64,000 bases of DNA. Origin: Tubiluchus corallicola (lineage: Eukaryota; Animalia; Priapulida). Of the stretch, positions 12,371 to 60,316 are shown piece after piece. The stretch's first letter is position 1; every line of letters starts with the position of its first letter. The stretch lies in NCBI GenBank assembly GCA_030141605.1, contig JAQGDQ010000084.1, forward strand, positions 620,001 through 684,000, read 5' to 3'. The position numbers and the translations under genes are program-made. The notes under the pieces were generated by a model. It saw nothing but the letters and a program-made list of their open reading frames with translations. It searched no databases and was not told where the DNA came from.

Positions 12371-13630
12371 TTAATCATAGCGTACAACAGATTGCAAAAC
12401 TTTTGGACTATATTTAAACAAAGGAATAACCAAGCCAGTCATTAATATCAGCACAGCAAATGTTGCACTGTATCCGAAAAATTCTGCGATTGACCCCACA
12501 CACGAAGAAAATAACAACTTTCCTAGAACTTCCACAGTCGTTAGAACAGCGTAATGTGTGTTTCGCACATGATTAACAGACTGTCGTGAACAGTGCATCA
12601 TGATCGTAAATGTTGCCGTGGTAACTGCTCCGCTGTGAAACTGCAAAACGACAATGCAAAGTACTGAACTGATGGACAGCGTCAGTGGATTGGCCTGCGC
12701 ATAGAGGGTTAGCGTAAGCATTCCGAACAAGGGTACTAATCTGACCAAACAATGGCGTTTTAAGGATGTTAGAAAAGACGCTTTTCTTACAGAAAGCAAA
12801 AAACCCCCATAAACTGAGCCAAATATGGATGAGGACATGCCAAGTATGCCTGTCCAAAAGTTTACTGATGTGCTAGATACTCCAGCATCAATCAGAAACA
12901 ATGGAAACAGCGATAAAGCACCTTGCGAACCAAGTTTATAAGTTAACACAAAGACTAACATCCAAAGTGTCCCGGGTGTTTGTGTCACACTTATATACAC
13001 TCCAATCCATGTTTTCCAAAAACCCAAGTCGCTAGCCGTACGTACGTCATGGCCAGTATTCAATTTTTCGTTATTTGGAAAAGTTAGTTTGCATTTATAG
13101 GCTATTGCTAAGATGAAACTAAGAAAATAAAGAGAAGAAAGTAATAAGAAAGTGAAAAACCAGCCTAACCAATGTTCGCTGAATGTCATAAATAAGCCCC
13201 CAAACACTGCACCAACTTTATATGCAACGACCTGCACGGAATTTCCAAATCCAAGTTCAGCGTCTTTCAACATGTCAATTGCTAGTCCGTCTACTGCTAT
13301 GTCTTGAACTGCCGTAGAAAGGTTTAAAACGAATAACACAAAACAGACAGTAGAAATCCGGTTCAAATCGGTCAGCGACAACATAACGCACGACGCAGTC
13401 ATAAGCAGTTTAGTCATCGACAACCACTGAAAGTGCGTCCCTCGTCGATCAACTAACGGTGCCCACAAACCCTTTAACAGCCAAGGAGACAGCAGTAATT
13501 TCATACCGCCGATCCTCGTCAGGGTGGAATTGCGAGTTCGCATATATGTAGGTAAAAAGTTTGATTGCAGTCCATATGGAATGCCTTGTGAAAAGTAAAA
13601 CCATGCCAGCAAGGCAATTTCTGTTCTCAT
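12371..13630 (-). CDS. MFSD3: Major facilitator superfamily domain-containing protein 3-like (AmpG/acetyl-CoA transporter-related MFS), single coding exon, 419 aa
   Basis: Long hydrophobic ORF with YFSQGIPYGLQ, PWLLKGLWAPLVD, AVQDIAVDGLAI, GNSVQVVAYKVG and THYAVLTTVEVLGK, typical of MFSD3/AmpG-like proteins. First ATG is at 13630 (the ORF-track start is TTG). A splice acceptor (tttttcag) ends at 13656. Minus-strand AATAAA at 12043-12048. Confidence 0.88.
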   Translation of the reverse strand: MRTEIALLAWFYFSQGIPYGLQSNFLPTYMRTRNSTLTRIGGMKLLLSPWLLKGLWAPLVDRRGTHFQWLSMTKLLMTASCVMLSLTDLNRISTVCFVLFVLNLSTAVQDIAVDGLAIDMLKDAELGFGNSVQVVAYKVGAVFGGLFMTFSEHWLGWFFTFLLLSSLYFLSFILAIAYKCKLTFPNNEKLNTGHDVRTASDLGFWKTWIGVYISVTQTPGTLWMLVFVLTYKLGSQGALSLFPLFLIDAGVSSTSVNFWTGILGMSSSIFGSVYGGFLLSVRKASFLTSLKRHCLVRLVPLFGMLTLTLYAQANPLTLSISSVLCIVVLQFHSGAVTTATFTIMMHCSRQSVNHVRNTHYAVLTTVEVLGKLLFSSCVGSIAEFFGYSATFAVLILMTGLVIPLFKYSPKVLQSVVRYD

Positions 13631-14502
13631 GATGTAGTTCAAATCATTACTTACCCTGAAAAAGTAACATAATGAAATGACAATAACTGTTAACAGTAAC
13701 TTACCACAAGCAAATAGTGAAGCGAGAAATTGCTACCCCAAACAAATGTTTAAGTTTATTCTTGAAGGTATAAATGTTTTGGTCCATTACCCCTTCCCAA
13801 GGTATTATATGCATTAGAAACCACAATATGTTAGATTGTAATATAACAAGCTAGACTACTTTTCTACTGTTACATTGTACAGGCAAAACTTGTTATGTAT
13901 ACACATCTCTGTTATGTTTAAAATTTAACCTGTGATCAGGCTGCAACTGGCTACCTTTTGCTGACATTCTTGAATTTCTGGACTCAATATTGGACCTACA
14001 ATGTATGTATACATTCTAGTTTTCTTGTCTAGTGTAGTACTCTGTAAAATGTATAGTTCTAGTACATATTTCAATAGTTTGCAGAAATAATAGTTGTAGG
14101 TAACCAGTAAAAATGTTGTAGGCAAGAGCAAATTTGTATTTTTGCAGAATAAACAACTTAGCTATAGAAACGCAATACTGATTTGAGCAAGTACATTATA
14201 TTTATCAATCGCAGAGTTTTAAAAAATGAAGGTATTGCTGTTCAAAAGAAATGGTCAAATACACCCCTGATTGTCTACATTAATTTTTGGCAGATGCCAC
14301 AGCCTTGGGTTCAAGACTATAATTATAATATATACCGTACCACACCCACATGCAGATTTAAATACCTCACATGCAAAACAGATTTTTTTGCATAGACATA
14401 TTTATACAAAAAAATCTCTTCTGCATATAAGGTATATATATTGATACAGTATTAAGACGCTGTTTATTAGACTCACGCTTAATAGAATCAGTCGCCTAAT
14501 TG

Positions 14503-15076
14503 ACTATAAAAACACCTGGCATGGGTGGTTTCACTAAAAACACCTGGCATGGGTGGTTTCACTAAAAACATCTGGCATGGGTGGTTTCACTAAAACCATC
14601 TGGCATGGGTGGTTTCACTAAAAACACCTGGCATGGGTGGTTTCACTAAAAACATCTGGCATGGGTAGTTTCACTAAAAACATCTGGCATAGGTCGTTTC
14701 ACTAAAAACATCTGGCATAGGTCGTTTCACTAAAAACATCTGGCATGGGTGGTTTCACTAAAACGATCTGGCATGGGTGGTTTCACTAAAACCAACTGGC
14801 ATAGGGGGTTTCACTAAAACATCTGGCATGGGTCCTTTCACTAAAACCATTTGGCATGGGTGGTTTCACTAAAAACATCTGGCATGGGTGGTTTCACTAA
14901 AAACATCTGGCATGGGTGGTTTCACTAAAAACATCTGGCATGGGTCCTTTCACTAAAACCATTTGGCATGAGTGGTTTCACTAAAAACATCTGGCATGCG
15001 TTGTTTCAGTAAAAACATCTGGCATGGGTGGTTTCACTAAAAACATTTGGCCTGGGTGGTTTCACTAAAAACATCT
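14503..15076. repeat. 28-bp minisatellite, ~20 copies, inside a MITE starting at 14447
   Basis: Unit ACTAAAAACATCTGGCATGGGTGGTTTC with a 28-bp period (14521 to 14549 and onward). Confidence 0.95.
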
Positions 15077-19107: not shown

Positions 19108-20020
19108 TAGTTAATTAAACTAATATACAAACTGTGGCTTAATGATAGTAAGAAAAGTTAAGAAAACAAATAAATCTAACAGCATAATTTATGATGATAC
19201 AGCATAGATTAAATTAAAATTTATTAGCACTTTTATTCATTACGTACAACAGTACATGCTCCAAGCCAAAAACTGACTTTTTACAAGATCCACAAAGAAA
19301 ATAAAGCATTCTAACTACAAGGCTGGTAAATTAAACTTCATATTAATATTTAGTATAATAGTAGCAATAACTTATTTTACAATATAATAAACCACAACCT
19401 AGCCTTAAAATACCTGTACAATAACACAACGAAATGTCTGACATCTTAGTGGAATACAAGCAGAAACGGTCAGTATTGTCAATTTCCTGTCATAAGCTGA
19501 CAGCATAACAATCTATACAACTGAAAGCTGTTACAACCATTAAAATTCCATGCTTGTGTACTATAAAATCATTAAATAAGAATTGTAGACGACAACATAG
19601 ATGAAGATTCCAACAGTGAAAGAGGAAAGTACAGCACACTACTTACAATAGTATCATTCTAACGAACTTAACTTAGACAATTTTCCATTGAAGAACGAAA
19701 AATGGTTTCACATTCTGCAAATGAAGTTTAAATATAAAAATAAAAATGTCATACAAGTACTCATTCCACATATGGTAAACTTACATTAAAACAATTTAAT
19801 CACAGGCATCTGTAAGCAGATTTTATGCAAAGCTAAAAATTAAACATGAATCTTTTCAAGACATGTTTTGTATAACTGAAACAAAGACGAACCTGAAAAA
19901 CATCATCTCATGAACAAAGGTGTTTACTGATGTTCCACAGCTGCACCATGTGCTAATCTAGCAATATGTACGTTTGTACATTTTCGTTGACTTGAAACCT
20001 CAAAATGAGAGTCATACATA

Positions 20021-20661: not shown

Positions 20662-23600
20662 TTACTTCCTTCTTGTATTGGAAATAGCAGTCTGTTTTTT
20701 ACTACTCTGCCAGAACTTGTCATGTATAGTGAATGCATCGATAGTGGCTGACAGATGTTTAGATGGTATGGCTGTAAAGTGTTTAGCTCCCGAATCATAC
20801 TTGTAGAAGGAATGACACATTTTGTGGGTTATTGTTTTCGGTCCGGTGCCACAAAGTTTTGTAATTAAATCACTTTCCGGATCATATGAATACAACGCAC
20901 GAAACTGACAACCATTATCACGAAATAAGACTAAGAAGTGATTACTTTCAGACAGAGAAAGAGCATCTAAAACCCTTTTTTTCAAATCTTCATTAACAGT
21001 GCCAGCTAAGCAACGATAGTTAATGGCATTCATTACAATGCCGCGGTTAGACTTTGCACTTGGCTTTACAAATAGCTTAGGACCTGCATAGACCTCACTA
21101 GCATTAGACGATTCTGACATCTGATCAGATGCTTTACTGCTAAATCTGTCAAAAGCCTGAGCAGCAGATGGAGGAGATCCTCGTCCTCTTGGACTAGGTT
21201 CTCGTCGACGTGTTGAATAAATGTAATCACCATTGCCTTCATCTTCCTCAACGGTTTCTTCTTGAAACATGGATTTTGGTCGAAAATTGGGAGAAGTATT
21301 CAGTTGTCCAGGGGAATTTTCTTGAAGCAGTGATTTTGGTCGATTAGCTTTTGGCTTTTGCTTTAATTTAACTGGGGGAGAATCTCCTGCGGCACCTCCT
21401 TGCTCGTTAAGCTGTGCCTCCAACTTCCTCCTCTGATAATCTTCCCAGATAAGCTGTCTTCTAATTTTTTCTTCCTCTTTCTTTCTTTCTGCTTCTTCTT
21501 GTTTGAGTTGCAATTCTTCACGTCGTTTTGCATTTTCCATTTCTATCTGCAATCGCCTTTGTTCTTGCTTTTCCTTTCGTTTGAGAGCACTCAACATAAT
21601 CTTTTCCTTGCGTCTCATCATCTCTTCATCGTCTAATTTTTTATCTGATTCAGTTTGACCGAGTTCAAAAGCCACACCAGGAGCAGCTTCTACACGTTGA
21701 CTGGTGGTTTCTTCCACATTTGACATGGAGACAGAATCTTTGTTAGTTTGCTTTGACTCGGGTTTCTTTGCAGGTGGGGTACTGCCAGCAACAGAAGTGC
21801 GTAATTCAGTTTTTGTCTGGCTCATAGGTGATATATATTGGGGAGGTGGAGGCGGGGCATCTATATCAGCTGGCTCAGTTTCCTCTGGTGCCTTTTGCTC
21901 ACTAACAGCTTGCGAGGTTTTCTTACCATTTTTCTTTCCCTTGAGTTTTGGTTTACGTTTTCTTGGTGTTCCATCATCAAAGGAAATAACAAATCCTTGG
22001 TTATCGCCACCTGGTAACGGCCCAACATCACCAGTAATTTTACTAGTCTTCTCCTCAGCTCTATCAGTGTATGACATAACAGGTTCAGAACTACTACTGT
22101 AAGTACTCGATTCTAATGAGTGAGATTCTGCTGCACTCGTTTCTAAATTACTTAATTCCTTAGCCTGTTGCTCTTGGGTGTGAGAATGTTCTGGCGACTT
22201 CCTCTCTTGCTGCTGATCTGAGGCATATTGACTGTTATCAGTTTCTGCAGGTTGTCTTGCATCCATTTCAGCATTCTGAACTGCAGAGTCCGTGTGACCT
22301 GTACCACGGTAAGCCCTATCAGGAGACGCACGCAAATTTTCTTGGGAATGCCTTAGATTGTGCAGGTGTTCCTGCGATCCGCTATAGTGCTGAGGTGGTG
22401 AAGGTTGGAAACCATAAGGAGGATAAGGTTGCGGGTAAGGTGGATGAGGGTATCCATGTTGTGGATCGTAGTAGAGATTGTACTGACCATGATGATAAGG
22501 GCTAAAGTGTGGCATGCCATGCCCACTGTAAAGTTGCTGTTGAGGAACAGGATGAGACGGAAGTCCCTGATAATGTGGCGAATACTGAAACTGAGGATAA
22601 ATTTGAGGAGAACTATGTGAGTGAGGCGGAGCAAAACCAGGATGCATCACATATGCAGGTTGAGGTGGCATCATGGGCATGACAGGCTGAGCAGTTGACG
22701 GGGGGTGTTGCTGCATGGCAGTCTGCTGTGGCTGATGAAGAGTAGATGGTGTTCCAACAGGTGCTGCCAGTTCATGGGCAAGAGTTGCACTATCACGTGA
22801 ATCTGCCATTGCGACCTGTTCAAGTTGCGTTAGCTCGGACTGCAGTTCTTGCATTTTAGTTTCGTATTCGTGAAGCGTTTCACTTATTTGATCCTCGTTC
22901 ATTGCGTCCACTTTACCTTCGCCGTCAGTTGATTCACTCAGCCACCGTTGCCGTAGCTTATCCAGTATGTCTTCAATTTCACTTCTTGTCATTGGCCTTT
23001 TTGCTTTTGCAGATGTTTCTTCAACGTTATCATTTCTTGTAATCTTTGCACTCCCAGACTCTTCTAAAGGGGGCCTTATTTTAGCTTTGTCTAGTTTGTA
23101 TGTAGCATAATTAATATCAGACTTTGGTGGCGATTTTGCAAACACTCTATCACCTTCATCTTTGCTGTTTAAATCATTGGCTTTATGAACTCTAAAAGTG
23201 GCACTACGATCTACATAATTAGATTCTAAATCCTCATCCTTTTCCTGTATATCGTCTTTCCTGTCAGGTTTTCCCCCTTTCACGACCTGCATAAATGCTT
23301 GTTTTCCCATTCTTTGCCGATGCTTAGCTAAGTGTGCTTCCATTTGCTTTCGTTGGATTTCCATCTTCTTTCTTTTTTCCTCCAAGCGCATGCGGAGACT
23401 AGTTAATTCGGCATTGAGAGGTTTTGCATGATTAATAACTAAACTTGACCCATCTGGCTGTTTCTGCTGAGCACTTGCAGCCCACGTCGTCTGATTCGGC
23501 AATGCCGCGAATGTTGTCCGTTTCTTAGGAGAATCTTCTAGATTGGATTTTGGAGATCTTCTGTCGCTTTCCTTAACTGTTCCAGGATTGTGATGCATAT

Positions 23601-25203
23601 AAACGTCGCTATGTATTTCGCCATTTACCGGAGGCCTATCCTGAGATTTATTCAAATCCATAAAGTTATTTTGCGGACTTCTGCACAACGACAGATCAGC
23701 CTCCTGCGAATCGCTTTTCATACCAAATATATGGTCATCTATGACTGGAATCCCCGCCGCTCTTGCAGAGTTTGCTGTATGAAAAGAATCGTGAAGAGTG
23801 AAGCTCTTCCCAACTAAGCCAAGAGCATTTGCATTACCACTGCCTGGCTTTGTTAATCGCACGGGGTCTTCACCCCTTTCCATGTTTTTACTCTGCTTCA
23901 GCCTCTCCTTGTTCACTTTTAGCCTGGCAGGCATGAGAGGTTCGTTATCTAAGCTGGGAAGCTCTGGACCCGACGAAACGCTTTCCACCTCCATATCATC
24001 ACACTGTTTAGATACACGAGGGTGCTGCTGTTCCGTAAACAGCTTTGGCAACAAGCCATGCCTTTTTCGCTCTTGTGGGTCACACAAAGAGTCCGTGTCC
24101 ATTACGAACTTGGGCTTTCCAGGACTATGGGCTGCCCAAGTCTTCTTTCCTGGAGAAGATGAGATTTGCACAGGTTGACGAGCACGAGTAAACGAAGAAG
24201 AAAGACCAGAACTATGATGCTCTACCATTGCTGGGTGTTTTTCACGCACTGAATTAACAGGATTCACCTCTAAATGATAAAACAGTTCTGCAAGCAAAGC
24301 TTGAATGTTCAGGCGGCACACAGCTGGTGTATAAATCATATCTTCTAGTGCAAGCACAAATGGTTGGGAAGGGAAAAACTTCCGGCAAAAGTTTATGCAT
24401 AACTGAAGATTGTACAATGAATCACCCAAGCTCATGGGATGCTTAATATAAATATCACTAACGCGGAGATGTTCAGGACAATAGAAGCTAAGCAGTAAAG
24501 CAAAACACTGTCCATCACTTAAATCCTCTGCTAGGTTATTAAGTTTTGGCAAATTTACTTGACCTACTCTACACAATTCCAACCTGGCAGTGAAAAGCTC
24601 CATAACTTTATTTGCCCACAAAATTAATCCTTGTTCCCCAGGTTCTGGAGATTCTGAAGAACTAACGCCGAGGCATTTCAATGCGTATGCAATATGACTG
24701 CCGCTTGCCGCCTCGGTTATGAACGCCATCATAAGAGCATCAATCATAGCAATGTGAGCGCTGAGTTTCACAGGTGACGTCTGCAATAATGATGCTTCAG
24801 TTACCACTGCATCATTTCTTTCCATGGGACATATCCCCTTACGAGAAAGAAACTGTATTATAATAGACACAGGTTGTCCCTTAAAGTTTGGATCATGAAA
24901 AATGGATGCCGAAGCCAAACTGTATAACTCACCAGATGAGAGTTTGTTGACTATCGCTGGTTTCAAGTGGTGATCTTCTTTTTCTGACGTAAAATACAAA
25001 TGTCGAAAATTTTCAGGTATTTCTCCACCATACGCCTTCGTAATAAGCCATTTAATATTTGCTTTTTCTTTGGCTCTCACACGGTCATAATCATTCAACG
25101 GCACAATTTCTGGAACATCACCATACAACTTCTCAGCATCTAGTGCTGACGGAGGACGTTTTTTGTCCACTACTGCATTTTCGGTTTGCTTATTGTCTGC
25201 CAT
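20662..25203 (-). CDS. CAMSAP: CAMSAP/Patronin microtubule minus-end-binding protein, intronless, 1513 aa
   Basis: Single uninterrupted ORF. It has the CAMSAP N-terminus (VPLNDYDRVRAKEKANIKWLITKAYG), a CAMSAP CH domain (DLSDGQCFALLLSFYCPEHL...SLGDSLYNLQL), CC1 (LRMRLEEKRKKME...RQRMGKQAFMQVV), CC3 (EEEKIRRQLIWEDYQRRK) and a C-terminal CKK domain (GPKLFVKPSAKSNRGIVMNAI...HFLVLFRDNGCQFRALY...FYKYDSGAKHF). First ATG is at 25203 (ORF-track start 25212 is GTG). Candidate minus-strand AATAAA at 19220-19225 and 19232-19237. Confidence 0.96.
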   Translation of the reverse strand: MADNKQTENAVVDKKRPPSALDAEKLYGDVPEIVPLNDYDRVRAKEKANIKWLITKAYGGEIPENFRHLYFTSEKEDHHLKPAIVNKLSSGELYSLASASIFHDPNFKGQPVSIIIQFLSRKGICPMERNDAVVTEASLLQTSPVKLSAHIAMIDALMMAFITEAASGSHIAYALKCLGVSSSESPEPGEQGLILWANKVMELFTARLELCRVGQVNLPKLNNLAEDLSDGQCFALLLSFYCPEHLRVSDIYIKHPMSLGDSLYNLQLCINFCRKFFPSQPFVLALEDMIYTPAVCRLNIQALLAELFYHLEVNPVNSVREKHPAMVEHHSSGLSSSFTRARQPVQISSSPGKKTWAAHSPGKPKFVMDTDSLCDPQERKRHGLLPKLFTEQQHPRVSKQCDDMEVESVSSGPELPSLDNEPLMPARLKVNKERLKQSKNMERGEDPVRLTKPGSGNANALGLVGKSFTLHDSFHTANSARAAGIPVIDDHIFGMKSDSQEADLSLCRSPQNNFMDLNKSQDRPPVNGEIHSDVYMHHNPGTVKESDRRSPKSNLEDSPKKRTTFAALPNQTTWAASAQQKQPDGSSLVINHAKPLNAELTSLRMRLEEKRKKMEIQRKQMEAHLAKHRQRMGKQAFMQVVKGGKPDRKDDIQEKDEDLESNYVDRSATFRVHKANDLNSKDEGDRVFAKSPPKSDINYATYKLDKAKIRPPLEESGSAKITRNDNVEETSAKAKRPMTRSEIEDILDKLRQRWLSESTDGEGKVDAMNEDQISETLHEYETKMQELQSELTQLEQVAMADSRDSATLAHELAAPVGTPSTLHQPQQTAMQQHPPSTAQPVMPMMPPQPAYVMHPGFAPPHSHSSPQIYPQFQYSPHYQGLPSHPVPQQQLYSGHGMPHFSPYHHGQYNLYYDPQHGYPHPPYPQPYPPYGFQPSPPQHYSGSQEHLHNLRHSQENLRASPDRAYRGTGHTDSAVQNAEMDARQPAETDNSQYASDQQQERKSPEHSHTQEQQAKELSNLETSAAESHSLESSTYSSSSEPVMSYTDRAEEKTSKITGDVGPLPGGDNQGFVISFDDGTPRKRKPKLKGKKNGKKTSQAVSEQKAPEETEPADIDAPPPPPQYISPMSQTKTELRTSVAGSTPPAKKPESKQTNKDSVSMSNVEETTSQRVEAAPGVAFELGQTESDKKLDDEEMMRRKEKIMLSALKRKEKQEQRRLQIEMENAKRREELQLKQEEAERKKEEEKIRRQLIWEDYQRRKLEAQLNEQGGAAGDSPPVKLKQKPKANRPKSLLQENSPGQLNTSPNFRPKSMFQEETVEEDEGNGDYIYSTRRREPSPRGRGSPPSAAQAFDRFSSKASDQMSESSNASEVYAGPKLFVKPSAKSNRGIVMNAINYRCLAGTVNEDLKKRVLDALSLSESNHFLVLFRDNGCQFRALYSYDPESDLITKLCGTGPKTITHKMCHSFYKYDSGAKHFTAIPSKHLSATIDAFTIHDKFWQSSKKQTAISNTRRK

Positions 25204-25529
25204 GATGTTCACAAGACTACGGTCATTTCAACACACAAAACACAACACCGAGATACAGAAAGACACTTGTGCAAAATGCTAAAATCACTTCACACTTTAT
25301 GGTCACTACAAACTAAATCTTTAATTGTACACTTTAGAAGACAAGGTTATTCCAACATACACATTCTTTTAGAGCCACGGGGCTTATGGTGGATTACGGT
25401 AAGCACAGGCACGGTTGAAACAGGTTTGTGATGTATTTTCTTCGCAGTAAAAGACTTCACACTGTGAAAGCAACAATCGGAATTAATATTCTAGTCTTTC
25501 TTGAAAAGGTGCTAACAAAATGCCGAAAT

Positions 25530-28500
25530 TTACTTGTTGGCAACTTTTACATCCATTCTAACACATGCCGACATTGCCTCATCTGCCTCAAAATCTTCCT
25601 AAAACAAAAAAACCATTTTATTGAGAGTCAAGTTAGTAATTGAGTATAAACCTACTCAATTAAATTCAATGTAAATTACAAAATCAGTTGTCCATTAATT
25701 AATTAACAGCTTGTGTTAAATAACAGCAAGCTAAGAATAGTTCTATACAATTTTTGTAATAATTTCACACAAGTAATTGATTAAATTTCCTTGATTTATT
25801 TGCATTTTAGCTAACGGTAAAAAAAACAAATTACTGAGCCAGATAGATCCATGCATAGTTGTGTTTACAGACAAGACTTGTATAAATCTGAAGTGTTTAA
25901 AAGATCAAAAGTCAATCGACAGACTTAAAATGTTTATAAACTGACGAATATAAAACTTATAGAATTTGAACGCACAAAAAAGTAGCTTTACAAAACAAGA
26001 AATGTCGTCAACACTAGGTCTCCAAACTCATATGATAATTCAGGCATAAGTCTCCAGTTATGCATAACTGTAGAGCATTTGAGGACTACAGCTGAACTGT
26101 ATTTAGATGCCCAATACACCTCACTTTCAAGATGTTGTTAAATTATCATTAAAGGAAAGGCTAAGCCTTCTAAGAGGTTGGACTTATCTCAAAGTTTGCG
26201 AAAAATGTCAGAAGGATTTAGTAATAAATCTGCAATAACAGTCTCGTGTAACTAGTAAAATCACTTTAAATTCGTGATCACTTCGTGCTCGGGCGCTGCC
26301 ATTTTCAATGCCCATTCTTCTTCCAATGACGTCATTCGTCTTGACGAAAAGTAGCGCATTGTCAATCTTTGTCAAAAGTATAATAAGTTTTTACAAAAAA
26401 ATTGTATAGTTAATTTTGTAATATTTTTGCGTGAATCAGGAAAACTCCAGAAGTTTAAATTAGTTTAAGCAGCGTGCGCTTACGGAAAGCCACGACTCGC
26501 TTACGAAAAGTCACGAAGTTTCCCAGTTACGTCATGATTTTCAAGGGAATGGCGGCAACCACCATGCCTGAAAATTTCATTCAGATGTAGTTTATTTTAA
26601 ATTTATGCTTTACAGGCAGTTCTTTGGAATTTTTTGTTATGCTTTTCTAAGTTTAAGTGATAACAGTAAAATAAAATCAACATACTAAGTGATTTATTCT
26701 TTCCTTTAATGTTCATTGATAAAAACAGCATCTGCCCAAGACATTAGCAAGTCTGTACTTCGTTAGTAAAAATGGAAAGAAAATTCACAATACCGCATTC
26801 TACTGAACAACGTATAAGAACTGACAGACTAAAATGCATAAAAGTGGCCCAACAGCCATAATTGATAAAATTTATAAGCATAAACAACAATGGAATTTAT
26901 AAGCATAAACAACAAGTGACACTTTAAAAATATTGAAACATCATTGCAAAGTAACAATAATGCAGGCTTGATACTTACGGGATCATAGATAACTCTCACA
27001 ATTAGGGAACAGCTGGGACACGTAGCGACATCTTCACCATTTTCTAACATTTCCTGAAAGAAAAGTTGTAAATTACAAACTTTGAAGAGTTGCACAATCA
27101 CACAAAATGCAGCTGACCTAACTTAATTGGCATAGAAAGTTTTCTTAAAGGAAGACCGGATGATTGCTTAGACTTAATCTCATTTTAATTTACTGTCCAA
27201 AATATACATTTTCTTGATTAAAAAAGTTGCCTTTAAAAGCAATTATTTCTTATATTTGAATAATTAGCTTAGAAACTTAATTAACGGCAACCGAACACAG
27301 CTATTGCTTATGTCAGAAACTAACCACAGTTCGTGCAATGGCAGACATCTTCCCTTACACGTCAAACACGTTTGCGTAAGTGTTGCTGCTTAAACGCGTG
27401 ATGTCATGAAAATGTGCTCTACATCATGTGACGTCAGAAACTAACACTGCAGTTCATGATCATACTTATCAGGGTATCATCTTCTATTTGTCAGCCACGC
27501 GAAGGTGACAAAAAGGCACCATTGCCAATCTTAGTACATTCAGTGAGCCGCAGGTAGCTTTGAAAGTTTTACGAAATTTGAGTATCTGGGGCAATTATTA
27601 TTTAATCTAAGCTTTGATTTAAAAAAGCTATTGTAGTTTTCTAGAGCATTCTTTATTCTGAACTAATGTTTACACAATCATCCAATTTTCCTTTAAGAAA
27701 AAGGCAGTTTCACACTGAAATTAGATATCACACCTGTAAGAGTTGCGATGATTTTCTAAGAAAAGTTTAAATGACAGTTTGAGGTTCTTTCAATTGGCGT
27801 GAATAGTACGACTGAAGGATAAAATGTACTCTGGGTGTACTTCCACACGATTTGCAATAATGAAAAAAAGAATTCATATCATTTTACTAAAAAGTTCTAC
27901 GTTTTAAACTATGTACATATGTAGGCATATCAGGTCAAGTATACAAATGAACACTATACATAAATAAATCGACGGTAAATGTTATTTAAACATTATTGTA
28001 ACCTGAATCGTTTTGTGACAGTAATCCTGCAACCTAATTAAACCTTTGAACATAGCTACACAGCACGTATATTTTCTCTAACATCACAAACGCTAAATGT
28101 AGAACATAACAATCTCGCAATCTTAAGTAAATTTTTTTTTTGCACAATTGCAAAGCTTCTTGGTGTTCCTGCGAGTGCTGCTCCAATCAAGAAAAGCGCA
28201 AAAAACAAGCTTAGTTCACACTATACTCATATGCAATGTTTCTTGGGGCCTAATTGACGCTTTCCTGCTTAGCTAAGGGCTAATTTTGGCAAGCACAGAA
28301 ACTAATTCATGCTGTGCAAACACACACACGGCCAGAGAAGCGCAAACTGTCCCATTTTCGCATTCCACGTGAAATTATTGTTAAGCATAGGCTCAGCGTT
28401 TGCTTGGACACGACCCCTCCTACGGCAAATAACAGATTTTCTTTTATGTTTTCTTAAAGATCACAAAGACAGCTAATTGAAACAAGTTGAAAGGACCGTG

Positions 28501-34500: not shown

Positions 34501-35366
34501 GTAATTTAGTAGTTTTTTGTAATAGTTTAGTGAAATTTTGTATTATTCAGTTGTTTAAGTCGTCATATTAGCATTAGCTTTACGGATTTTTTCTCTCTCT
34601 CTCTCTGCGGTGTTCAAGCACATATTATAAGGATATTAAACTATAGAAAAACAAAATATTTAAAACTCAACAAAAGTTAAAACTGTGATGGATGAAACAT
34701 CGACGAATCAAACGACAATATTTATAATTAAGTAATTTACACTCTAAAATGAATTTCACTGATGTGATTTTTATAGTTTAAAATGCATGAGAATTGGCCG
34801 ATCTGATAATTAATATGTATCTTGTGTATGTAGAAAGAGAACAAAACGATCAGACTAAATCACTGCTTAAGCAGGAATGGTAATATCACAATTTCCTTAA
34901 TACACCTTGTATTTTAGCCAAAAAATAAACTTACGCAGTTGGCATCTATTTGTAGTGATACTATTACTAATTATTAACACAGAATGTTTTGCTGCTTATA
35001 ATTTCTAGTGACAAATTAAATATTTTAACTCTTTAAACATTCAAATTATTTATGAAGTATTATTTTTATACCAATTAGTATGCTATAGTTCAAGTCAGGC
35101 GTCGGCACTTTATTTTATTTTTTTTGTATAACTCAAATATAAGAGTATAAACCCTAGAATTCAGAAAAAATACTGCACCAATTAGAATTTCAAACAATGT
35201 CACAGTTAATACATACAACAGAGCGTGGAACCGTCCGTCACAAGGATCTGACACAAACCTTTGTTATTTCAAATCGGTCACCGCATGGGCAAGGATAGTA
35301 ATAAGTTTCCGCTTCGTCATCATATTCAAAGTCTTCAATTTCTACTTCATCATGAAATACTGACAT
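25530..35366 (-). CDS. DPH3: Diphthamide biosynthesis protein 3 (CSL-type Zn/Fe finger), 3 exons, 83 aa
   Basis: Exons are 35366-35259 ([36 protein letters not shown]), 27053-26979 ([25 protein letters not shown]) and 25598-25530 ([22 protein letters not shown]). All introns are phase 0 and GT-AG. CPCGD and CPSCSL motifs are diagnostic. Exon 3 was chosen from its strong acceptor (ggtttttttgttttag) and a length matching the DPH3 tail, so it is less certain than exons 1-2. Confidence 0.92.
26153..26705 (+). mobile_element. Kolobok-like non-autonomous element family C (TTAA TSD), DPH3 intron 2
   Basis: TTAA|AGGAAAG ... CTTTCCT|TTAA. The body is homologous to 59687-60168. Confidence 0.75.
27149..27692 (+). 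mobile_element. Kolobok-like element family D (TTAA TSD), DPH3 intron 1
   Basis: TTAA|AGGAAGACCGGATGATTG ... CAATCATCCAATTTTCCT|TTAA. An inverted copy is at 33265-33764 and a partial copy at ~34098-34278. Confidence 0.75.
29540..30228. mobile_element. hAT-like MITE
   Basis: CAGGGCCGACTCTA / TAGAGCCGGCCCAG termini. Degenerate 8-bp TSD aacgcttc / tatgcttc. Confidence 0.65.
31636..32078. mobile_element. hAT-like MITE
   Basis: CAGGGCTGACAAGAG / CTCTCAGTGGGCCTG termini with a degenerate TSD. The internal part recurs at ~43545-43750. Confidence 0.55.
32736..33134 (+). mobile_element. MITE family B, full-length copy
   Basis: AATAAGCC ... GTGAAAAGGCTTATT termini. Homologous to 62453-62846 and to the split copy at 36619-37749. 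Confidence 0.75.
33265..33764 (-). mobile_element. Kolobok-like element family D, inverted copy
   Basis: TTAA-flanked and reverse-complement homologous to 27149-27692. Confidence 0.7.
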
Positions 35367-35605
35367 TATATTCCTGATTTCTGTAGAATGAACACAGCCT
35401 CACCCAAAATTATTACAGAAAACTTTACGTTTTCATTAACCCGGAAGTGGCGGTCTCCAGCGGAAGCAGTTTTAAAGCGTCCTCTTGTAGTCATTTGTAA
35501 AACGTGCAATCACTGATCGATTTTTGGCACGCAGGAGTAAATTAGAAGAACAGAATTTTATTTTTAATACTATCTGTAGTTCTGTACCGGAAGAGTTTAA
35601 CGATC
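35367..35605. promoter_or_regulatory. Bidirectional promoter shared by DPH3 and CTR1
   Basis: Only 239 bp separate the divergent ATGs. ETS/GABP-type motifs: CCGGAAGTG 35441-35449, GCGGAAGC 35460-35467, CCGGAAG 35587-35593. Confidence 0.7.
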
Positions 35606-38600
35606 ATGACACACGAAACTCATGATAGTGAAATGATGATGATGAAAAACTCGCCTCATGGTAAAGTATTCCTTTTGATTATAAAGCTTATGTTCCACCC
35701 ATTTCGTAATTCTCGTCTGTTGTATGGTCACTCCAGTATGCTCCTCTCTTTAAAGAACTCAAGATAGATGTACTCGTATTTAGTACAATTATTCAACCAA
35801 AATTAACACAAACTAGCTACCACAGTAGCCGAATATTTGCGTAGAAATGCTATTGTTCTTGCCATTATTGGTATTTAGTGTGTGCCTCACTGCACACAAA
35901 TATCTTGACTGGCGTTTCGTCTTTCGTTCTGGACGGTAATCTTTATCAGTTACCAGCTGTATTGCCTTTTGAGGATCTTCTAATTTTTACACAAAACATA
36001 TTTCTCTGAAAATCAGCTTGTTTTTGGTTCTAGTAAAAAAGGAAAGTTTACAGCTGTCTGCTAGGGCATTTGTTAGGGTCTTTCCAAATGTATTTCACAG
36101 CTACAAAGTGTTCCTCTTGTACTTTTTTCGGTTTTTGTATTATTCCACGTACATTCCAATACTTGTAACCGAATGCTAGCTTAAAATGTCCATAATTTGC
36201 ACGCAACAGCTTAAAATCGTCCGGTTTTTTTTAAACTTTGTAAGCAAAAGTTTTTGCAACTCTGTTCTGCAACTCCCTTTTACCTTTACGAAGCTGTGGA
36301 GCCTTACAAAGTTTGGGTCATATACAAGCCCTGAGGTGTGAAAAACTTGTTTCTAATACAAATATACTTGTATGCGTTTAGCTACAAGAAACTGTGCATA
36401 TGACAGGTAGTGAGTAATCACCTGTCAGTTGTTTAGAAATATAAGTTATATGCAAAAGTACAGTCTAAAGGACTTAAGTTAGTAAAAAGGGCTAGGATCT
36501 TATACTCATTACAGTCACTTTCAAAGGCAATAATAATGACAAGTTAGTGAAAGTATCAGGTGGTGAGAGAAATATTTGAAAAAATTTAATACATGAATCT
36601 CGCTTGCTTTTTGAACTTAATAAGCCCTTTCACAGTTCTAGTGATTGATGATGATTGTGAAAAGGTCAAAGGTTAAGTGTACCAGACAACGCATTTGTGT
36701 ACACTTGACAGCGCCTCGTAGCCTATGCTATTGCAATAGTAAACAGTTTTAAAAGGCAACTTTACCTAGTCCATTTTTTTGTTCTCAAGCAAGATCATGC
36801 TAGTTAATCACTCTACGCTCATCATAATCCATAGTTAAAGCAAAATCCAAGTCTCTCGGGAAGTTGACCTTATTCTAATATTTGAGAAAAATGATAGAAA
36901 GTTTCAGCAATGCAATTGTGATAAGCGCCTTGTGTAACTAATAATTTCAAGTTAAAATTGTGATCACTTCATGCTCGGGCGCACGCTCATCTTAGTGAAA
37001 AATGGCGTCATCTGGTTACTGTGCAATATAAACAGTTATTCTGCCAAGTGCTTCAGCATTTTTTGACTGATAAAGCGAACTCTATAAACTAAGTAACCTA
37101 CCGGTACCTACTGTATGCTAGCAAGTTTACGTATGTATCTGAGTCAACGAAGGTCTGTAAATTAATTACATTTACGCAATTAACGTATACTACTTACACA
37201 TTTTACGGTATAATCCTGTGGGTTAAAGCTATGTAACCACTTCAATCTTGGTCATAATTGATCCAATGACTAATTTTCACATAAACATAGTTAAATACAA
37301 CGTTAGAATAACTGAATTTCTCAGTGAACTGTAGAATTTTCTCAATGTGTACCTTCATCACAGCTTGCCTTCACAGCATTCATGCTGCCCAGCGGTCACC
37401 ATTAATTTTTTTCAAATATGGCAGCAGCGACATTTGTTTGGCAGGAGATAAAAAATATTTAAATTTCTTTTACATTTTTAAGCAAAGCATTCTATGCGCA
37501 TATCTTGTGTGGTGATTTCAATATTTTTAATTGTATATTAAGATGCAATGAATGTTGCTCGAGGGTTGGCTCTTCCTTTAAGTAAAGTCCACGTAAAACA
37601 ACTGAAGTTACTGAACTGATGCGACAAACGGCTTTGCTTTACCCACACGTCACATGACGGTTGTAGTTAAAACACGTTGCTGTCATACACTTAACCTTTG
37701 ACCTACTGCAGCTGCGTGCGCACAAAACAAAACTGTGAAAAGGCTTATTATCTTAATTAGTTACATTGTGGTATTTAAAGTATAAAAATCTCATTGCTGT
37801 GTCTTATCTTACAAGACAGTTTGTACTTTTCGTAAATAACTATGGAAGTTTTTGCTGAATCAAAGTGATTCATTTAGGGTGTTGCAGCAATGATCAGGCT
37901 GAAATTACAACAACAAAATAATTACATGTAATACTGCATATAGTGTAGGTGCTAATATAAGTGTTTCGAATTAGACTAATTTAAGAAATGTTCCTTTAAT
38001 CTCAAAAGTAAACCTGCAAATAAAATACCGTTCTCAATGTTAAACATCTGCATGACCACATTAAGTTCTTATTGTTAAATGTATTAAATATGCCCCCCGG
38101 CAAACAGCAATACTCTTTGGTACTCTTCACATGCTGAAATCTTCGAGAGCCTCTATTTCACAACCCTTTTGCATACATGAATCGTAAATTTCTTACTGTG
38201 GTTTTAAATTTAAATAGTGCTCATTTAACTGATTGTCATTTGCAGTATTTTTGTTTTGTAGATGGCATGGCAGATGATGAAACAAAGTCCATGTCTCATC
38301 ACCCAACCATTGGTGATTATCAAATGAAAATGTGGTTTCATTTTGGCACAAATGAAATCATCTTATTCGATGCTTGGCATCCGACTTCGGCCGGCAGCAT
38401 GTTTGGTGCCGTAGTCATTTGTTTCATGCTTTCAGTGCTGTACGAGGGACTAAAATTGCTACGTGAATATTTACTGCTGCGCACACAGAAAGCGCAACCG
38501 GCCGAGTACTGCAGTCCAACACCTGTGAATAGAGATGACGAAGGTACGGTGTATATCAGCCAGCCGAAGCATCAAGATAGTAGCAGCTCTTTCCCCATAT

Positions 38601-38800
38601 TTAGTCTAGTACACATAGTGCAGACAACGATACATTTGTTCCAAGTCTGTATCAGTTATTTACTTATGTTAATATTCATGACGTACAATGTTTGGTTGTG
38701 TCTGGGTGTCGTGTTCGGTGCAGCGACCGGTTACTTCGTTTTTGGCTGGAAAAAGAAATTGCTGACTGTGGTATCCGATTCCAATGAACACTGCCATTGA
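35606..38800 (+). CDS. SLC31A1: High-affinity copper uptake protein (CTR1/SLC31A family), 2 exons, 197 aa
   Basis: Exon 1 is 35606-35660 (MTHETHDSEMMMMKNSPH+G, donor gtaaag) and exon 2 is 38262-38800 (acceptor ttttgtag). The phase-1 join gives D-GMADDE. It has a His/Met-rich ectodomain, MKMWFHFG, YEGLK, the TM2 MxxxM motif (MLIFM-TYN), TM3 GxxxG and a C-terminal HCH. Confidence 0.92.
36619..37749 (+). mobile_element. MITE family B split by a nested family-C-related TTAA element (36839-37577), CTR1 intron
   Basis: The 5' half (36619-36838) and 3' half (37578-37749) rejoin at a duplicated TTAA to give a full family-B copy. The insert ends AG...CCT and shares GTGATCACTTC(A/G)TGCTCGGGCGC with family C. 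Confidence 0.7.
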
Positions 38801-58575: not shown

Positions 58576-59482
58576 ACCTGCCTTGTTCCTGGACTTTGAT
58601 CTTCTGCTTATGTTCTGAATACTTAGTTACTGCTTATGAACTGAAGTTACTGAATTGATAAAGCAGCCGGGTTTGCTTTACCCGCATGTCAAGTGGCTGT
58701 TGTAGTTAAGACGCGTTGCTGTGGTACACTTAACCTTTGACCTACAGCAAGTGCGCGTGCGCAAAACGAAACTGCGAAAAGGCTTATTAGGACAAAGGTG
58801 GCAAATATTACAGATTTGTGAGAATTAATTTCACACATCTCTGACGTGCTGCTTTAAACACAAGTAATTTCAAATGCTAATTATGACAGTAAAGACAAAA
58901 AACTAAAATTCAATACAACAACCATAATCCAGAAAATGACAAACTACATTTAGGAATGAAATCCATACGTCTACACTCACTGGGGCGCTGGTTGTTAAGT
59001 TTCTAATTATTATTTAACTCGAATAAAACCGGACAGAAAAAATACAAAATGCAATATATTGACCACTAGCACGTCATTCAGCTGTACAGTCTGTTAAACT
59101 AGACATTTTTTAAACGTTTTTATTTTGATTTTTATTACTAATTTCGTTGCACACCACGCCTCAAACTGTTCACATTGCACTAATTCATGAAATATATAGA
59201 CGGATTACAGAAACGTTAAAAACATCAAGATTTCGGTTTGATTGTCAAAAACGATACGTCAGACTGCTTATACTGCCTGTTGCATTAACGCCCCAGCAGT
59301 TGGAGTTTCAAAATGTCTGTTTCCAAATTTAAGTTACGTCACATTACATTAAAATAAGGAGTAGAAGAGAGAGAGATGATAACGTTTGCACCCAGAGATT
59401 CACAATCGATTAAACGCAGGCGCTCTTTCCTCCCCCGCTTCGTCCCTCTTCCCTTATTTTAATCTAATGTGACTTATAGTTG

Positions 59483-60284
59483 TTATACTTGAGCTTCTGG
59501 ATCGGTGGAATCTTCCTGAAAGGAATCCCGTATTTGCGTCATGTGATTAGCTATGATGTAACCATAAAATTTGTTATACCATTCCACAGATCTTCCCCTG
59601 TAACAGCACAACATGTAACGCGTTACAACACGCATAAACACCAGGAGAACACAAGCAGTGTTAAATTTTTCATGCATTTCTGTTAAAGGAAAAGTTAACA
59701 CTTCTGAGCAGTTGGTCTTATTTTCAATAATTGCGAAAAATGTTAAAACGACTTTGTGATAAGTATGTGATAAGTGTCTTGTGTAATCACTTTAAAGCGA
59801 TTCTTCCACCAATGACGTCACTAGACGGTCAAAGAAAAGCAGCACATTGTCTATTTCTGTTAAAAGTATAACAAACTTTTACAAAAATTAGATACGTAGT
59901 TTTGTGACATTTTTGCATTAGATGAGCTACAGAAGGTTGAATTAGTATACAGAGATTGCTTACGGAAAGCCACGATACACTTTCCAAAAGTCACTAGTTA
60001 TGTTATAATTTTCAAGCGAATGGCGGCTACCACCGCGCCCGAAAATTTCTATACAGCCGTAGTACGGATTGACTTTGTGCTTTATAGACAGTTTTGGTGC
60101 AAATTTCTTCTTCACATTTTTCTATAACAGTAAAATACACTCAACAGGCTGAGTGACTTGGCTTTCCTTTAAACAGTTTTAGGAAGAGGAATGTTTTTAG
60201 ATTAGACGATTATAAAAATTACTGGCTTTAAAAGTAATAACTTTTTTTAGAGAAGAAAGAATTTAACACACACACACACACACA

Positions 60285-60316
<32 letters not shown>

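What the first reader, a model, noticed from the sequence alone, without database searches (positions are those of the whole stretch)
25203..25598. DPH3 runs almost directly into Patronin: candidate bicistronic or operon-like transcript
Seen: the DPH3 stop (25530) is only 326 nt upstream of the ATG (25203) of a complete CAMSAP ORF on the same strand. The spacer must hold the DPH3 3' UTR and leaves little room for a Patronin promoter. It has no AATAAA, but has ATTAAA (25325-25320) followed by a GU/U-rich tract (GGTGTTGTGTTTTGTGTGTTG, ~25249-25229) and an AG (25218-25217) just before the ATG. It also holds two tiny uORFs, MCMLE* (from 25364) and MTVVL* (25226-25209). The two genes are in different frames with a TGA at 25230-25228, so stop readthrough cannot fuse them. 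Established: a poly(A) signal about 100 nt before a U-rich element and trans-splice AG is the layout of SL-resolved operons in nematodes and some other animals, and small ORFs upstream of large ORFs occur in animal bicistronic mRNAs. Inference: Patronin is expressed from the DPH3 promoter, either by reinitiation on a bicistronic mRNA (tuned by use of the weak ATTAAA) or by trans-splicing. This would couple a diphthamide/Elongator cofactor to a microtubule minus-end organiser. I know of no description of this linkage but cannot search for one.
Basis: partly seen in the sequence, partly recalled or inferred. Interest (0 to 1): 0.82.

Follow-up and report, generated by a model that had tools for sequence, protein, structure and literature searches.

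The report
Intronless Patronin jammed behind DPH3
In what is likely a priapulid worm, the microtubule gene Patronin/CAMSAP has no introns and starts only 326 bases after the small housekeeping gene DPH3; the two are likely made as separate mRNAs from overlapping signals, but a shared transcript is not excluded because no RNA data could test it.

Summary
The layout is real. CAMSAP groups with the Priapulus caudatus protein and lacks an intron kept in 20 of 21 other animal loci, so it is retrocopy-like. The spacer reads best as a well-formed DPH3 poly(A) site (UGUA twice, AUUAAA, GU-rich tract rarer than chance) about 100 nt before the CAMSAP start. The proposed trans-splice AG is weak, no priapulid spliced leader turned up, and a read-through mRNA would carry 19 upstream AUGs. 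I put a CAMSAP start site overlapping the DPH3 3' end at 0.42, a bicistronic mRNA at 0.27, a shared promoter with cis-splicing at 0.20 and a spliced-leader operon at 0.10. No RNA holder was listed and synteny in priapulids could not be tested, so the mechanism is inferred. The scan had not noted this pair before; it did note another giant intronless gene inside a housekeeping gene in this genome.

The parts
35441..35593 (.). Three ETS-type cores (CGGAAG/CTTCCG) above the DPH3 start; likely DPH3 promoter, possibly shared head-to-head with the Ctr gene
   Evidence: window frequency 0.28 per kb; motif label recalled
35398..35406 (-). Donor-like site (GT at 35403-35402) 37 nt above the DPH3 ATG; candidate non-coding first-exon end for CAMSAP
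   Evidence: 99.4th percentile, home-made matrix; 34 of 1,172 75-nt windows hold one as strong; use not shown
35259..35366 (-). DPH3 coding exon 1 (36 codons)
   Evidence: Pfam Zn_ribbon_CSL E 2e-12; intron position shared with homologues
26979..27053 (-). DPH3 exon 2 (25 codons, second CxxC)
25530..25598 (-). DPH3 exon 3 coding part (22 codons + TAA)
   Evidence: EDF start matches homologues; acceptor at 95th percentile
25204..25529 (-). 326-nt single-copy spacer: DPH3 3' UTR, poly(A) site and CAMSAP leader
   Evidence: no stable fold, z -0.38; no Rfam match
25462..25480 (-). Strongest acceptor-like site in the spacer (AG at 25463-25462), upstream of the poly(A) hexamer
   Evidence: 97.8th/98.4th percentile; use not shown
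25320..25361 (-). Predicted DPH3 poly(A) signal: TGTA at -36 and -6, ATTAAA at 25325-25320; cleavage predicted near 25300
   Evidence: cleavage place inferred from the usual metazoan spacing (recalled)
25229..25249 (-). 21-nt G/T-only tract, likely downstream element of the poly(A) site
   Evidence: P 0.005 in shuffles; 2 such tracts in 60 kb of strand scanned; 4 of 264 hexamers have as G+T-rich a downstream region
25347..25364 (-). uORF of 5 codons (second AUG at 25358 in the same frame)
25209..25226 (-). uORF of 5 codons ending 5 nt before the CAMSAP ATG; contains the weak AG at 25218-25217
20662..25203 (-). Intronless CAMSAP/Patronin ORF, 1,513 aa (CH, CC1, CKK)
19220..19237 (-). Two AATAAA hexamers with three upstream TGTA; predicted CAMSAP poly(A) site after a 1.4-kb 3' UTR

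Best explanation
An intronless CAMSAP/Patronin gene, likely an old reverse-transcribed copy, sits 326 nt behind the DPH3 stop codon, and the two genes are likely expressed as separate mRNAs: DPH3 would be cut and polyadenylated near 25300, and CAMSAP would start from its own site overlapping the DPH3 last exon. Shown: both ORFs, the exon map, the missing CAMSAP introns, the motifs. Inferred: that intron loss came by retroposition or cDNA recombination; that the UGUA/AUUAAA/GU-rich site is used; that a CAMSAP promoter lies in the DPH3 3' UTR or the end of intron 2. On this reading the gap stays short because terminator and promoter are interlocked, while both DPH3 introns took up high-copy repeats. 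Some read-through RNA is expected but would not be the main source of CAMSAP protein.
For: The poly(A) site has the full element set: TGTA at -36 and -6, and 55 of 80 downstream bases G or T, matched by 4 of 264 hexamers in the window; CAMSAP's own AATAAA has the same upstream TGTA pattern. A used site there ends most DPH3 transcripts before the CAMSAP ATG. A read-through mRNA would have a leader of about 650 nt with 19 AUGs including an 83-codon ORF; PMC4705651 (passages) cites a prediction that upstream ORFs over 55 codons block reinitiation. The AG next to the ATG is weak. The spacer has no stable fold and no Rfam match. Retrocopy-like state: 20 of 21 metagenome loci have an intron inside the CKK domain that this gene lacks. 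PMC4772013 (abstract and passages): most expressed mammalian retrocopies use new or nearby proto-promoters rather than a host promoter. FlyBase regards a 3' UTR overlapping the next gene's 5' UTR as ordinary (PMC4528330 section 8).
Against: No promoter signature was found in exon 3, the spacer or the unique part of intron 2: no ETS core against three above DPH3, no TATA or GC box; only single Inr-like and TCT-like matches of chance grade. CpG observed/expected is 0.70 in the spacer against 0.94 above DPH3 (few CpGs, weak). Neighbouring genes are 2.8 and 7 kb apart, so this is not a generally compact region. The stop-to-start distance is just above the -34 to 319 nt range of fly loci that are only polycistronic, and small proteins are over-represented among them (PMC4528330 section 6). 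The G/T tract lies 50-70 nt after the predicted cut, rather far for a downstream element (recalled norm).
Confidence: 0.42

Rival explanations
1. Bicistronic mRNA: a share of DPH3 transcripts passes the AUUAAA site and ends at the CAMSAP poly(A) site near 19220, giving a roughly 6.6-kb mRNA from which CAMSAP is made at low level by reinitiation or internal entry, while the upstream site gives DPH3-only mRNA.
For: Small conserved upstream ORF plus large downstream ORF in one continuous terminal exon. Because CAMSAP has no introns, the DPH3 stop is in the last exon, the NMD-immune layout described for human MTPN-LUZP6 (PMC3951408 passages). All three spacer AUGs open ORFs of 3-5 codons that close before the CAMSAP ATG, which has A at -3 and G at +4. 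No promoter motif in the spacer. 69 of 159 fly dicistronic loci have one gene with and one without monocistronic forms. SLC35A4 shows a 102-codon upstream ORF among 11 is tolerated.
Against: 19 upstream AUGs and an 83-codon ORF; last uORF ends 5 nt before the ATG; poly(A) site looks well formed; no structure suggesting internal entry; AUG depletion only P 0.058.
Confidence: 0.27
2. Shared promoter with cis-splicing: transcripts from the DPH3 promoter use the donor at 35403, above the DPH3 AUG, and splice over the DPH3 coding exons to an acceptor in the spacer, giving a monocistronic CAMSAP mRNA, in the manner of mouse Taf9 in Ak6.
For: The donor scores above the two real DPH3 donors (4.5 against 0.8 and 2.4); 34 of 1,172 windows hold one as strong. 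An acceptor at 25462 scores like real ones. Splicing to 25217 would skip the poly(A) site and all spacer AUGs. Taf9/Ak6 and 13-14 host-chimeric retrocopies per species; 130 fly genes share promoter and non-coding 5' exons. An unreviewed scan note describes an intronless CEP290 inside PLPBP in this genome.
Against: The strong acceptor (25462) lies upstream of the poly(A) site, so that mRNA would be exposed to the same cleavage; the acceptor that skips it (25217) is weak. The donor was noticed after the fact, scored with a matrix of recalled frequencies, and may lie in a 5' UTR intron, since an acceptor-like AG sits at 35381. DPH3 exon 1 or 2 spliced to any of three spacer AGs hits a stop, so no fusion protein.
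Confidence: 0.2
3. Spliced-leader operon: one pre-mRNA is cut at the DPH3 poly(A) site and a leader is trans-spliced at 25217, as in nematode operons.
For: About 85 nt from the predicted cut to the AG, near the roughly 100 nt of C. elegans operons (PMC7986045 passages); a real U/G-rich tract between them; the splice would remove all upstream AUGs. DPH3, MFSD3 and Ctr also have acceptor-like AGs 5-25 nt above an ATG.
Against: The AG has only 2 T in the 11 bases before it against 7-10 at four reference acceptors. No leader RNA family in the window. No priapulid leader in the listings or in the part shown of the distribution table in PMC2481426. Other genes in the window are kilobases apart. AGs near ATGs are equally explained by 5' UTR introns.
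Confidence: 0.1

Closest known systems
Intact retrogenes, including orphan retrogenes and Taf9/Ak6-type host-chimeric retrocopies (PMC4772013, abstract and passages read)
   Same: Intronless, intact copy of a normally spliced gene lying against a small housekeeping gene on the same strand
   Different: Lies after the host's last coding exon, not in an intron; 4.5-kb CDS; loss of the parent copy could not be tested; a distant relative (P0122) seems to keep or have gained one intron
Drosophila dicistronic loci and tandem genes with overlapping UTRs or shared 5' exons (PMC4528330 sections 6 and 8 read)
   Same: Short stop-to-start distance, small upstream protein, upstream poly(A) site able to give a monocistronic form
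   Different: No transcript evidence here; Dph3 and Patronin were not found in 12 searched supplement files, but one file could not be searched
Human bicistronic mRNAs MTPN-LUZP6, RPP14-HTD2, CERS1(LASS1)-GDF1, SNURF-SNRPN, SLC35A4-STREMI (passages of PMC3951408, PMC4705651, PMC13303939)
   Same: Two unrelated conserved ORFs in tandem; upstream stop in the terminal exon
   Different: Much larger downstream ORF; 19 upstream AUGs; a well-formed poly(A) site between the ORFs; DPH3 not mentioned in the main text of the two papers searched for it
Spliced-leader operons of nematodes, tunicates and chaetognaths (passages of PMC7986045, PMC12460157, PMC2481426; PMC3342872 section 23)
   Same: Poly(A) signal, U-rich tract and an AG within about 100 nt
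   Different: Weak acceptor; no leader RNA known from my searches for this lineage; no gene clustering elsewhere in the window

Membership tests
DPH3/Kti11 | CSL zinc ribbon with two CxxC motifs, about 80-90 aa | tested here: met
   Pfam PF05207 on exon 1; second motif in exon 2; 83 aa
CAMSAP/Patronin | N-terminal CH, CC1 coiled coil, C-terminal CKK | tested here: met
   groups with Priapulus caudatus XP_014677218.1
Retrogene | Loss of introns present in orthologues | tested here: met
   CKK intron in 20 of 21 loci (many are near-duplicates of one lineage), absent here
Retrogene | Intact and under selection | tested here: met
   1,513 open codons; in a diverged 189-nt contig 12 of 16 listed differences are at third positions and 10 of 13 codons keep the residue
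Retrogene | New locus distinct from a spliced parent (versus intron loss in place) | not testable with these tools
   no genome held; no priapulid contigs fetched
Bicistronic mRNA | One mature mRNA holding both ORFs | tested here: inconclusive
   no RNA holder listed; contigs only
Bicistronic mRNA | No exon junction after the upstream stop (NMD-immune layout) | tested here: met
   DPH3 stop and the whole CAMSAP ORF lie in one unbroken stretch; criterion from PMC3951408
Bicistronic mRNA | Leader permissive for leaky scanning or reinitiation | tested here: not met
   19 upstream AUGs, 83-codon ORF, A at -3 of the DPH3 AUG; exceptions exist
Spliced-leader operon | Leader RNA in the organism and leader on the downstream mRNA | not testable with these tools
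   no genome, no raw RNA reads; Rfam scan of the window empty
Spliced-leader operon | Strong acceptor after the upstream poly(A) site | tested here: not met
   the seven AGs from 25313 to 25217 score at the 22nd-81st percentile; 25217 reaches 84 with G treated as neutral
Spliced-leader operon | Intercistronic distance near 100 nt with a U-rich element | tested here: met
   cleavage place is predicted
Shared-promoter, alternatively spliced gene pair | Junction from a shared non-coding exon into the downstream gene | tested here: inconclusive
   candidate donor 35403 and acceptor 25462 by score only

The most novel reading that the evidence does not exclude
Priapulids resolve operon-like transcripts by spliced-leader trans-splicing, and this lets very long intronless retrocopies (CAMSAP here, CEP290 in an unreviewed note on the same genome) plug into small housekeeping genes and replace their spliced parents. 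That would add a phylum to the list of animals with operons.
Probability: 0.1. Interest if true: 0.8.

Novelty: new member of a known kind. Interest (0 to 1): 0.38.

Why it matters
On the best reading this is a tidy example of a known thing: an intron-stripped gene locked against a housekeeping neighbour. It matters modestly for annotation, since gene finders may merge or truncate such pairs, and for genome evolution, since a 4.5-kb intronless CAMSAP suggests that this lineage fixes unusually long mRNA-derived copies. If long reads show one mRNA, it would be an animal bicistronic message with an unusually hostile leader, worth dissecting. If a leader is found, it would be the first operon evidence I could find for priapulids, the slow-evolving outgroup to nematodes and arthropods, and would bear on where nematode operons came from.

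Tried and rejected
Whole-genome search: no genome held. RNA evidence: no RNA holder listed. Run X1 covers introns and repeats and behaves as DNA; run X2 (RNA is a guess, about 10% diverged) gave one 189-nt CAMSAP piece and no cover of the DPH3 exons or spacer; neither blank counts as evidence. Reads were laid only on 23400-27500, so DPH3 exon 1 and the 35403 donor were not examined with reads. Synteny: the N-terminal metagenome scan found nothing; the CKK scan gave 21 loci of other animals, none with a DPH3 hit (best E 0.93), but only L005 has substantial sequence (6.7 kb) above the CAMSAP start. The Priapulus DPH3 record was not among the named hits, so its scaffold could not be compared with the 64,070-nt CAMSAP scaffold; no listed DPH3 hit shares the 5,782-nt contig of P0122 (120 of 929 hits seen). 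Exon 3 elsewhere: rejected by homology. Fusion protein by readthrough or by splicing: rejected, frames differ and three spacer acceptors lead to stops. Structured entry site: z -0.38. CpG-island test: too few CpGs to decide. Leader-RNA-like motif scan of the window: 2 loose hits, not pursued. One row (Ctr, wrong ATG, not an AG) was dropped and redone. The four START-gene acceptors were picked from AGs above the 88th percentile and are not an independent reference. Literature: DPH3 + bicistronic gave 2 papers, 1 listed, irrelevant; DPH3 + dicistronic gave 0; of 316 papers with two of DPH3/CAMSAP/Patronin/KTI11, the 30 listed include none with DPH3 and CAMSAP or Patronin together.


Full report
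Observation. DPH3 has coding exons at 35366-35259, 27053-26979 and 25598-25530 on the minus strand, 83 codons in all. Exon 1 matches Pfam Zn_ribbon_CSL. Of 120 listed homologues (929 hits), most are genomic frames that run into an intron where exon 1 ends; 11 reach the second CxxC, and 8 of these continue EDF/EMF/DDF as exon 3 does while 3 run into an intron at that point. So exon 3 is correctly placed. The CAMSAP frame 25203-20662 is open for 1,513 codons and carries all four family domains. Its start aligns with the start of the nearest relative. The gap is 326 nt, single-copy within the window.

Organism. No close relative is in the databases: named CAMSAPs are 34-39% identical over the CH region. 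The profile-free HMMER search gave one much better hit, an unnamed Logan protein P0122 (46%). In a quick IQ-TREE tree of 66 CH regions (the careful search did not finish), the window protein, P0122 and P0141 form a clade with SH-aLRT 99; P0141 is Priapulus caudatus XP_014677218.1, and it shares lineage-specific motifs along the whole length. The organism is therefore likely a priapulid. Earlier scan notes had suggested this.

In 21 metagenome loci from other animals, 20 have GT directly after the glutamate that ends the first CKK segment, where the window's frame reads on; many of the 21 are near-duplicates of one lineage, so this is fewer independent cases. P0122 reads 632 codons without a break and then runs into an unrelated T-rich tail, which I infer is an intron; so the intron-poor state may be old, and loss in steps is not excluded (three of the loci, L004, L005, L018, also have large N-terminal exons). 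The ORF is constrained: a 189-nt contig from run X2 differs at 20 places; of the 16 listed, 12 are third positions and 10 of 13 codons are synonymous. An unreviewed note reports a 7-kb intronless CEP290 inside PLPBP in the same genome (not checked by me).

The spacer as a poly(A) site. ATTAAA alone is expected by chance in 17% of shuffles, but the 21-nt G/T-only tract is not (P 0.005; two such tracts in 60 kb of strand, the other a homopolymer run). The hexamer has TGTA at -36 and -6, and 55 of the 80 bases from +21 to +100 are G or T, matched by 4 of 264 hexamers in the window; CAMSAP's own AATAAA has three upstream TGTA. By the usual metazoan layout (recalled) this is a working site with cleavage near 25300, about 100 nt before the CAMSAP ATG. 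The U-rich tract therefore needs no trans-splicing to explain it, though it lies somewhat far downstream.

The spacer as a splice acceptor. With a simple pyrimidine score ranked against 3,406 AGs, the two homology-fixed DPH3 acceptors are at 98 and 95, and the presumed acceptors before MFSD3 and Ctr at 99.9 and 99.5. The AG at 25217 is at 72.5, or 84 if G is neutral, with 2 T in the 11 bases before it against 7-10. The best acceptor in the spacer is at 25462 (97.8), upstream of the hexamer. A donor-like site at 35403, 37 nt above the DPH3 ATG, scores higher than the real DPH3 donors; 34 of 1,172 windows of 75 nt hold one as good (matrix frequencies recalled). No splice from DPH3 exon 1 or 2 to the three spacer AGs tested gives a fusion protein.

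The spacer as a leader. Taking a start at 35440, a read-through mRNA has a 652-nt leader with 19 AUGs, one opening the 83-codon DPH3 ORF. The spacer's 3 AUGs are fewer than the 6.4 expected (P 0.058) and open 3-5 codon ORFs. It folds no better than shuffles (z -0.38) and the window has no Rfam match. PMC4705651 (passages) cites a 55-codon limit for reinitiation and also the SLC35A4 exception. In favour of a joint mRNA, the absence of CAMSAP introns puts the DPH3 stop in the terminal exon, the NMD-immune layout of PMC3951408 (passages).

The spacer as a promoter. Three ETS-type cores lie within 230 nt above DPH3 and none in exon 3, the spacer or the unique part of intron 2; other recalled core motifs give only single chance-grade matches. 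CpG observed/expected is 0.94 above DPH3, 0.70 in the spacer, 0.43 in unique intron 2. This is weak evidence against a separate promoter; priapulid promoter grammar is unknown to me.

Direct tests failed for lack of data. No genome is held. No RNA holder was listed. Contigs were laid on 23400-27500 only: X1 behaves as DNA and shows high-copy repeats in both DPH3 introns; X2 gave one short CAMSAP piece. Synteny could not be tested in priapulids; one other-animal locus with 6.7 kb upstream has no DPH3.

Comparison with what is known. FlyBase lists 159 dicistronic pairs, a stop-to-start range of -34 to 319 nt for purely polycistronic loci, 130 genes sharing promoter and non-coding 5' exons, and treats overlapping 3'/5' UTRs as ordinary (PMC4528330 sections 6 and 8; one supplementary file could not be searched, and may be the list of loci). 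Most expressed mammalian retrocopies use new or nearby promoters, 13-14 per species splice into host exons, and over 80% of old ones gained exons (PMC4772013 passages). Polycistronic transcripts are very rare in eukaryotes without leader trans-splicing (PMC3342872 section 23). Operon spacing is about 100 nt in C. elegans (PMC7986045 passages); chaetognath operons were called under 250 nt (PMC12460157 passages). Searches for a priapulid leader (listings, plus passages of PMC2481426) and for a DPH3-CAMSAP link found none; the library lacks most subscription papers.

Verdict. The anatomy is real and the gap is short for this region, where other genes are 2.8 and 7 kb apart. The mechanism is undecided. 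I commit to separate mRNAs with a CAMSAP start overlapping the DPH3 3' end (0.42), ahead of a bicistronic mRNA (0.27), shared-promoter cis-splicing (0.20) and a leader-resolved operon (0.10). Nothing supports a functional link between diphthamide or Elongator chemistry and microtubule minus ends.

Noticed in passing
window 12371-13630 (-): MFSD3 orthologue, 419 aa in one unbroken frame. A strong acceptor 25 nt above the ATG is followed after one base by a strong donor-like site at 13654, resembling a one-base exon or a recursive-type site.
   Followed up: partly
window 38262-38800 (+): Ctr copper transporter whose main coding region is one exon behind a strong acceptor at 38261; head-to-head with DPH3, 2.8 kb apart, possibly sharing the ETS-bearing promoter.
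   Followed up: partly
window 35381 (-): Acceptor-like AG 14 nt above the DPH3 ATG (92nd-96th percentile); could end a 5' UTR intron from a donor at 35587, or be a trans-splice site.
   Followed up: partly
window 25462 (-): If DPH3 exon 2 spliced to this acceptor instead of 25599, an 86-aa DPH3 with a different tail would result; it lacks the conserved EDF.
   Followed up: no
window 26149-26709 and 27145-27696: High-copy repeats inside DPH3 introns 2 and 1 (contig depth in the thousands); the first holds YY1-like and CRE-like motifs and could in principle supply a promoter.
   Followed up: no
window 59480-62300 (-): Last exons of a START-domain gene with ordinary introns full of simple repeats, showing that intron loss is not general here.
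   Followed up: partly
window 22350-22750 (-), CAMSAP residues about 820-950: Pro/Gln/Tyr/His-rich low-complexity stretch shared with the Priapulus protein; a preprint listing (10.64898/2026.10.03.756418, title and abstract start only) describes a prion-like domain in fly Patronin.
   Followed up: no
window 14507-15076: Tandem array of a roughly 30-nt unit upstream of MFSD3.
   Followed up: no
P0122 (Logan, 5,782-nt contig): Unnamed CAMSAP, likely from another priapulid, open for 632 codons and then apparently entering an intron that the window gene lacks.
   Followed up: partly
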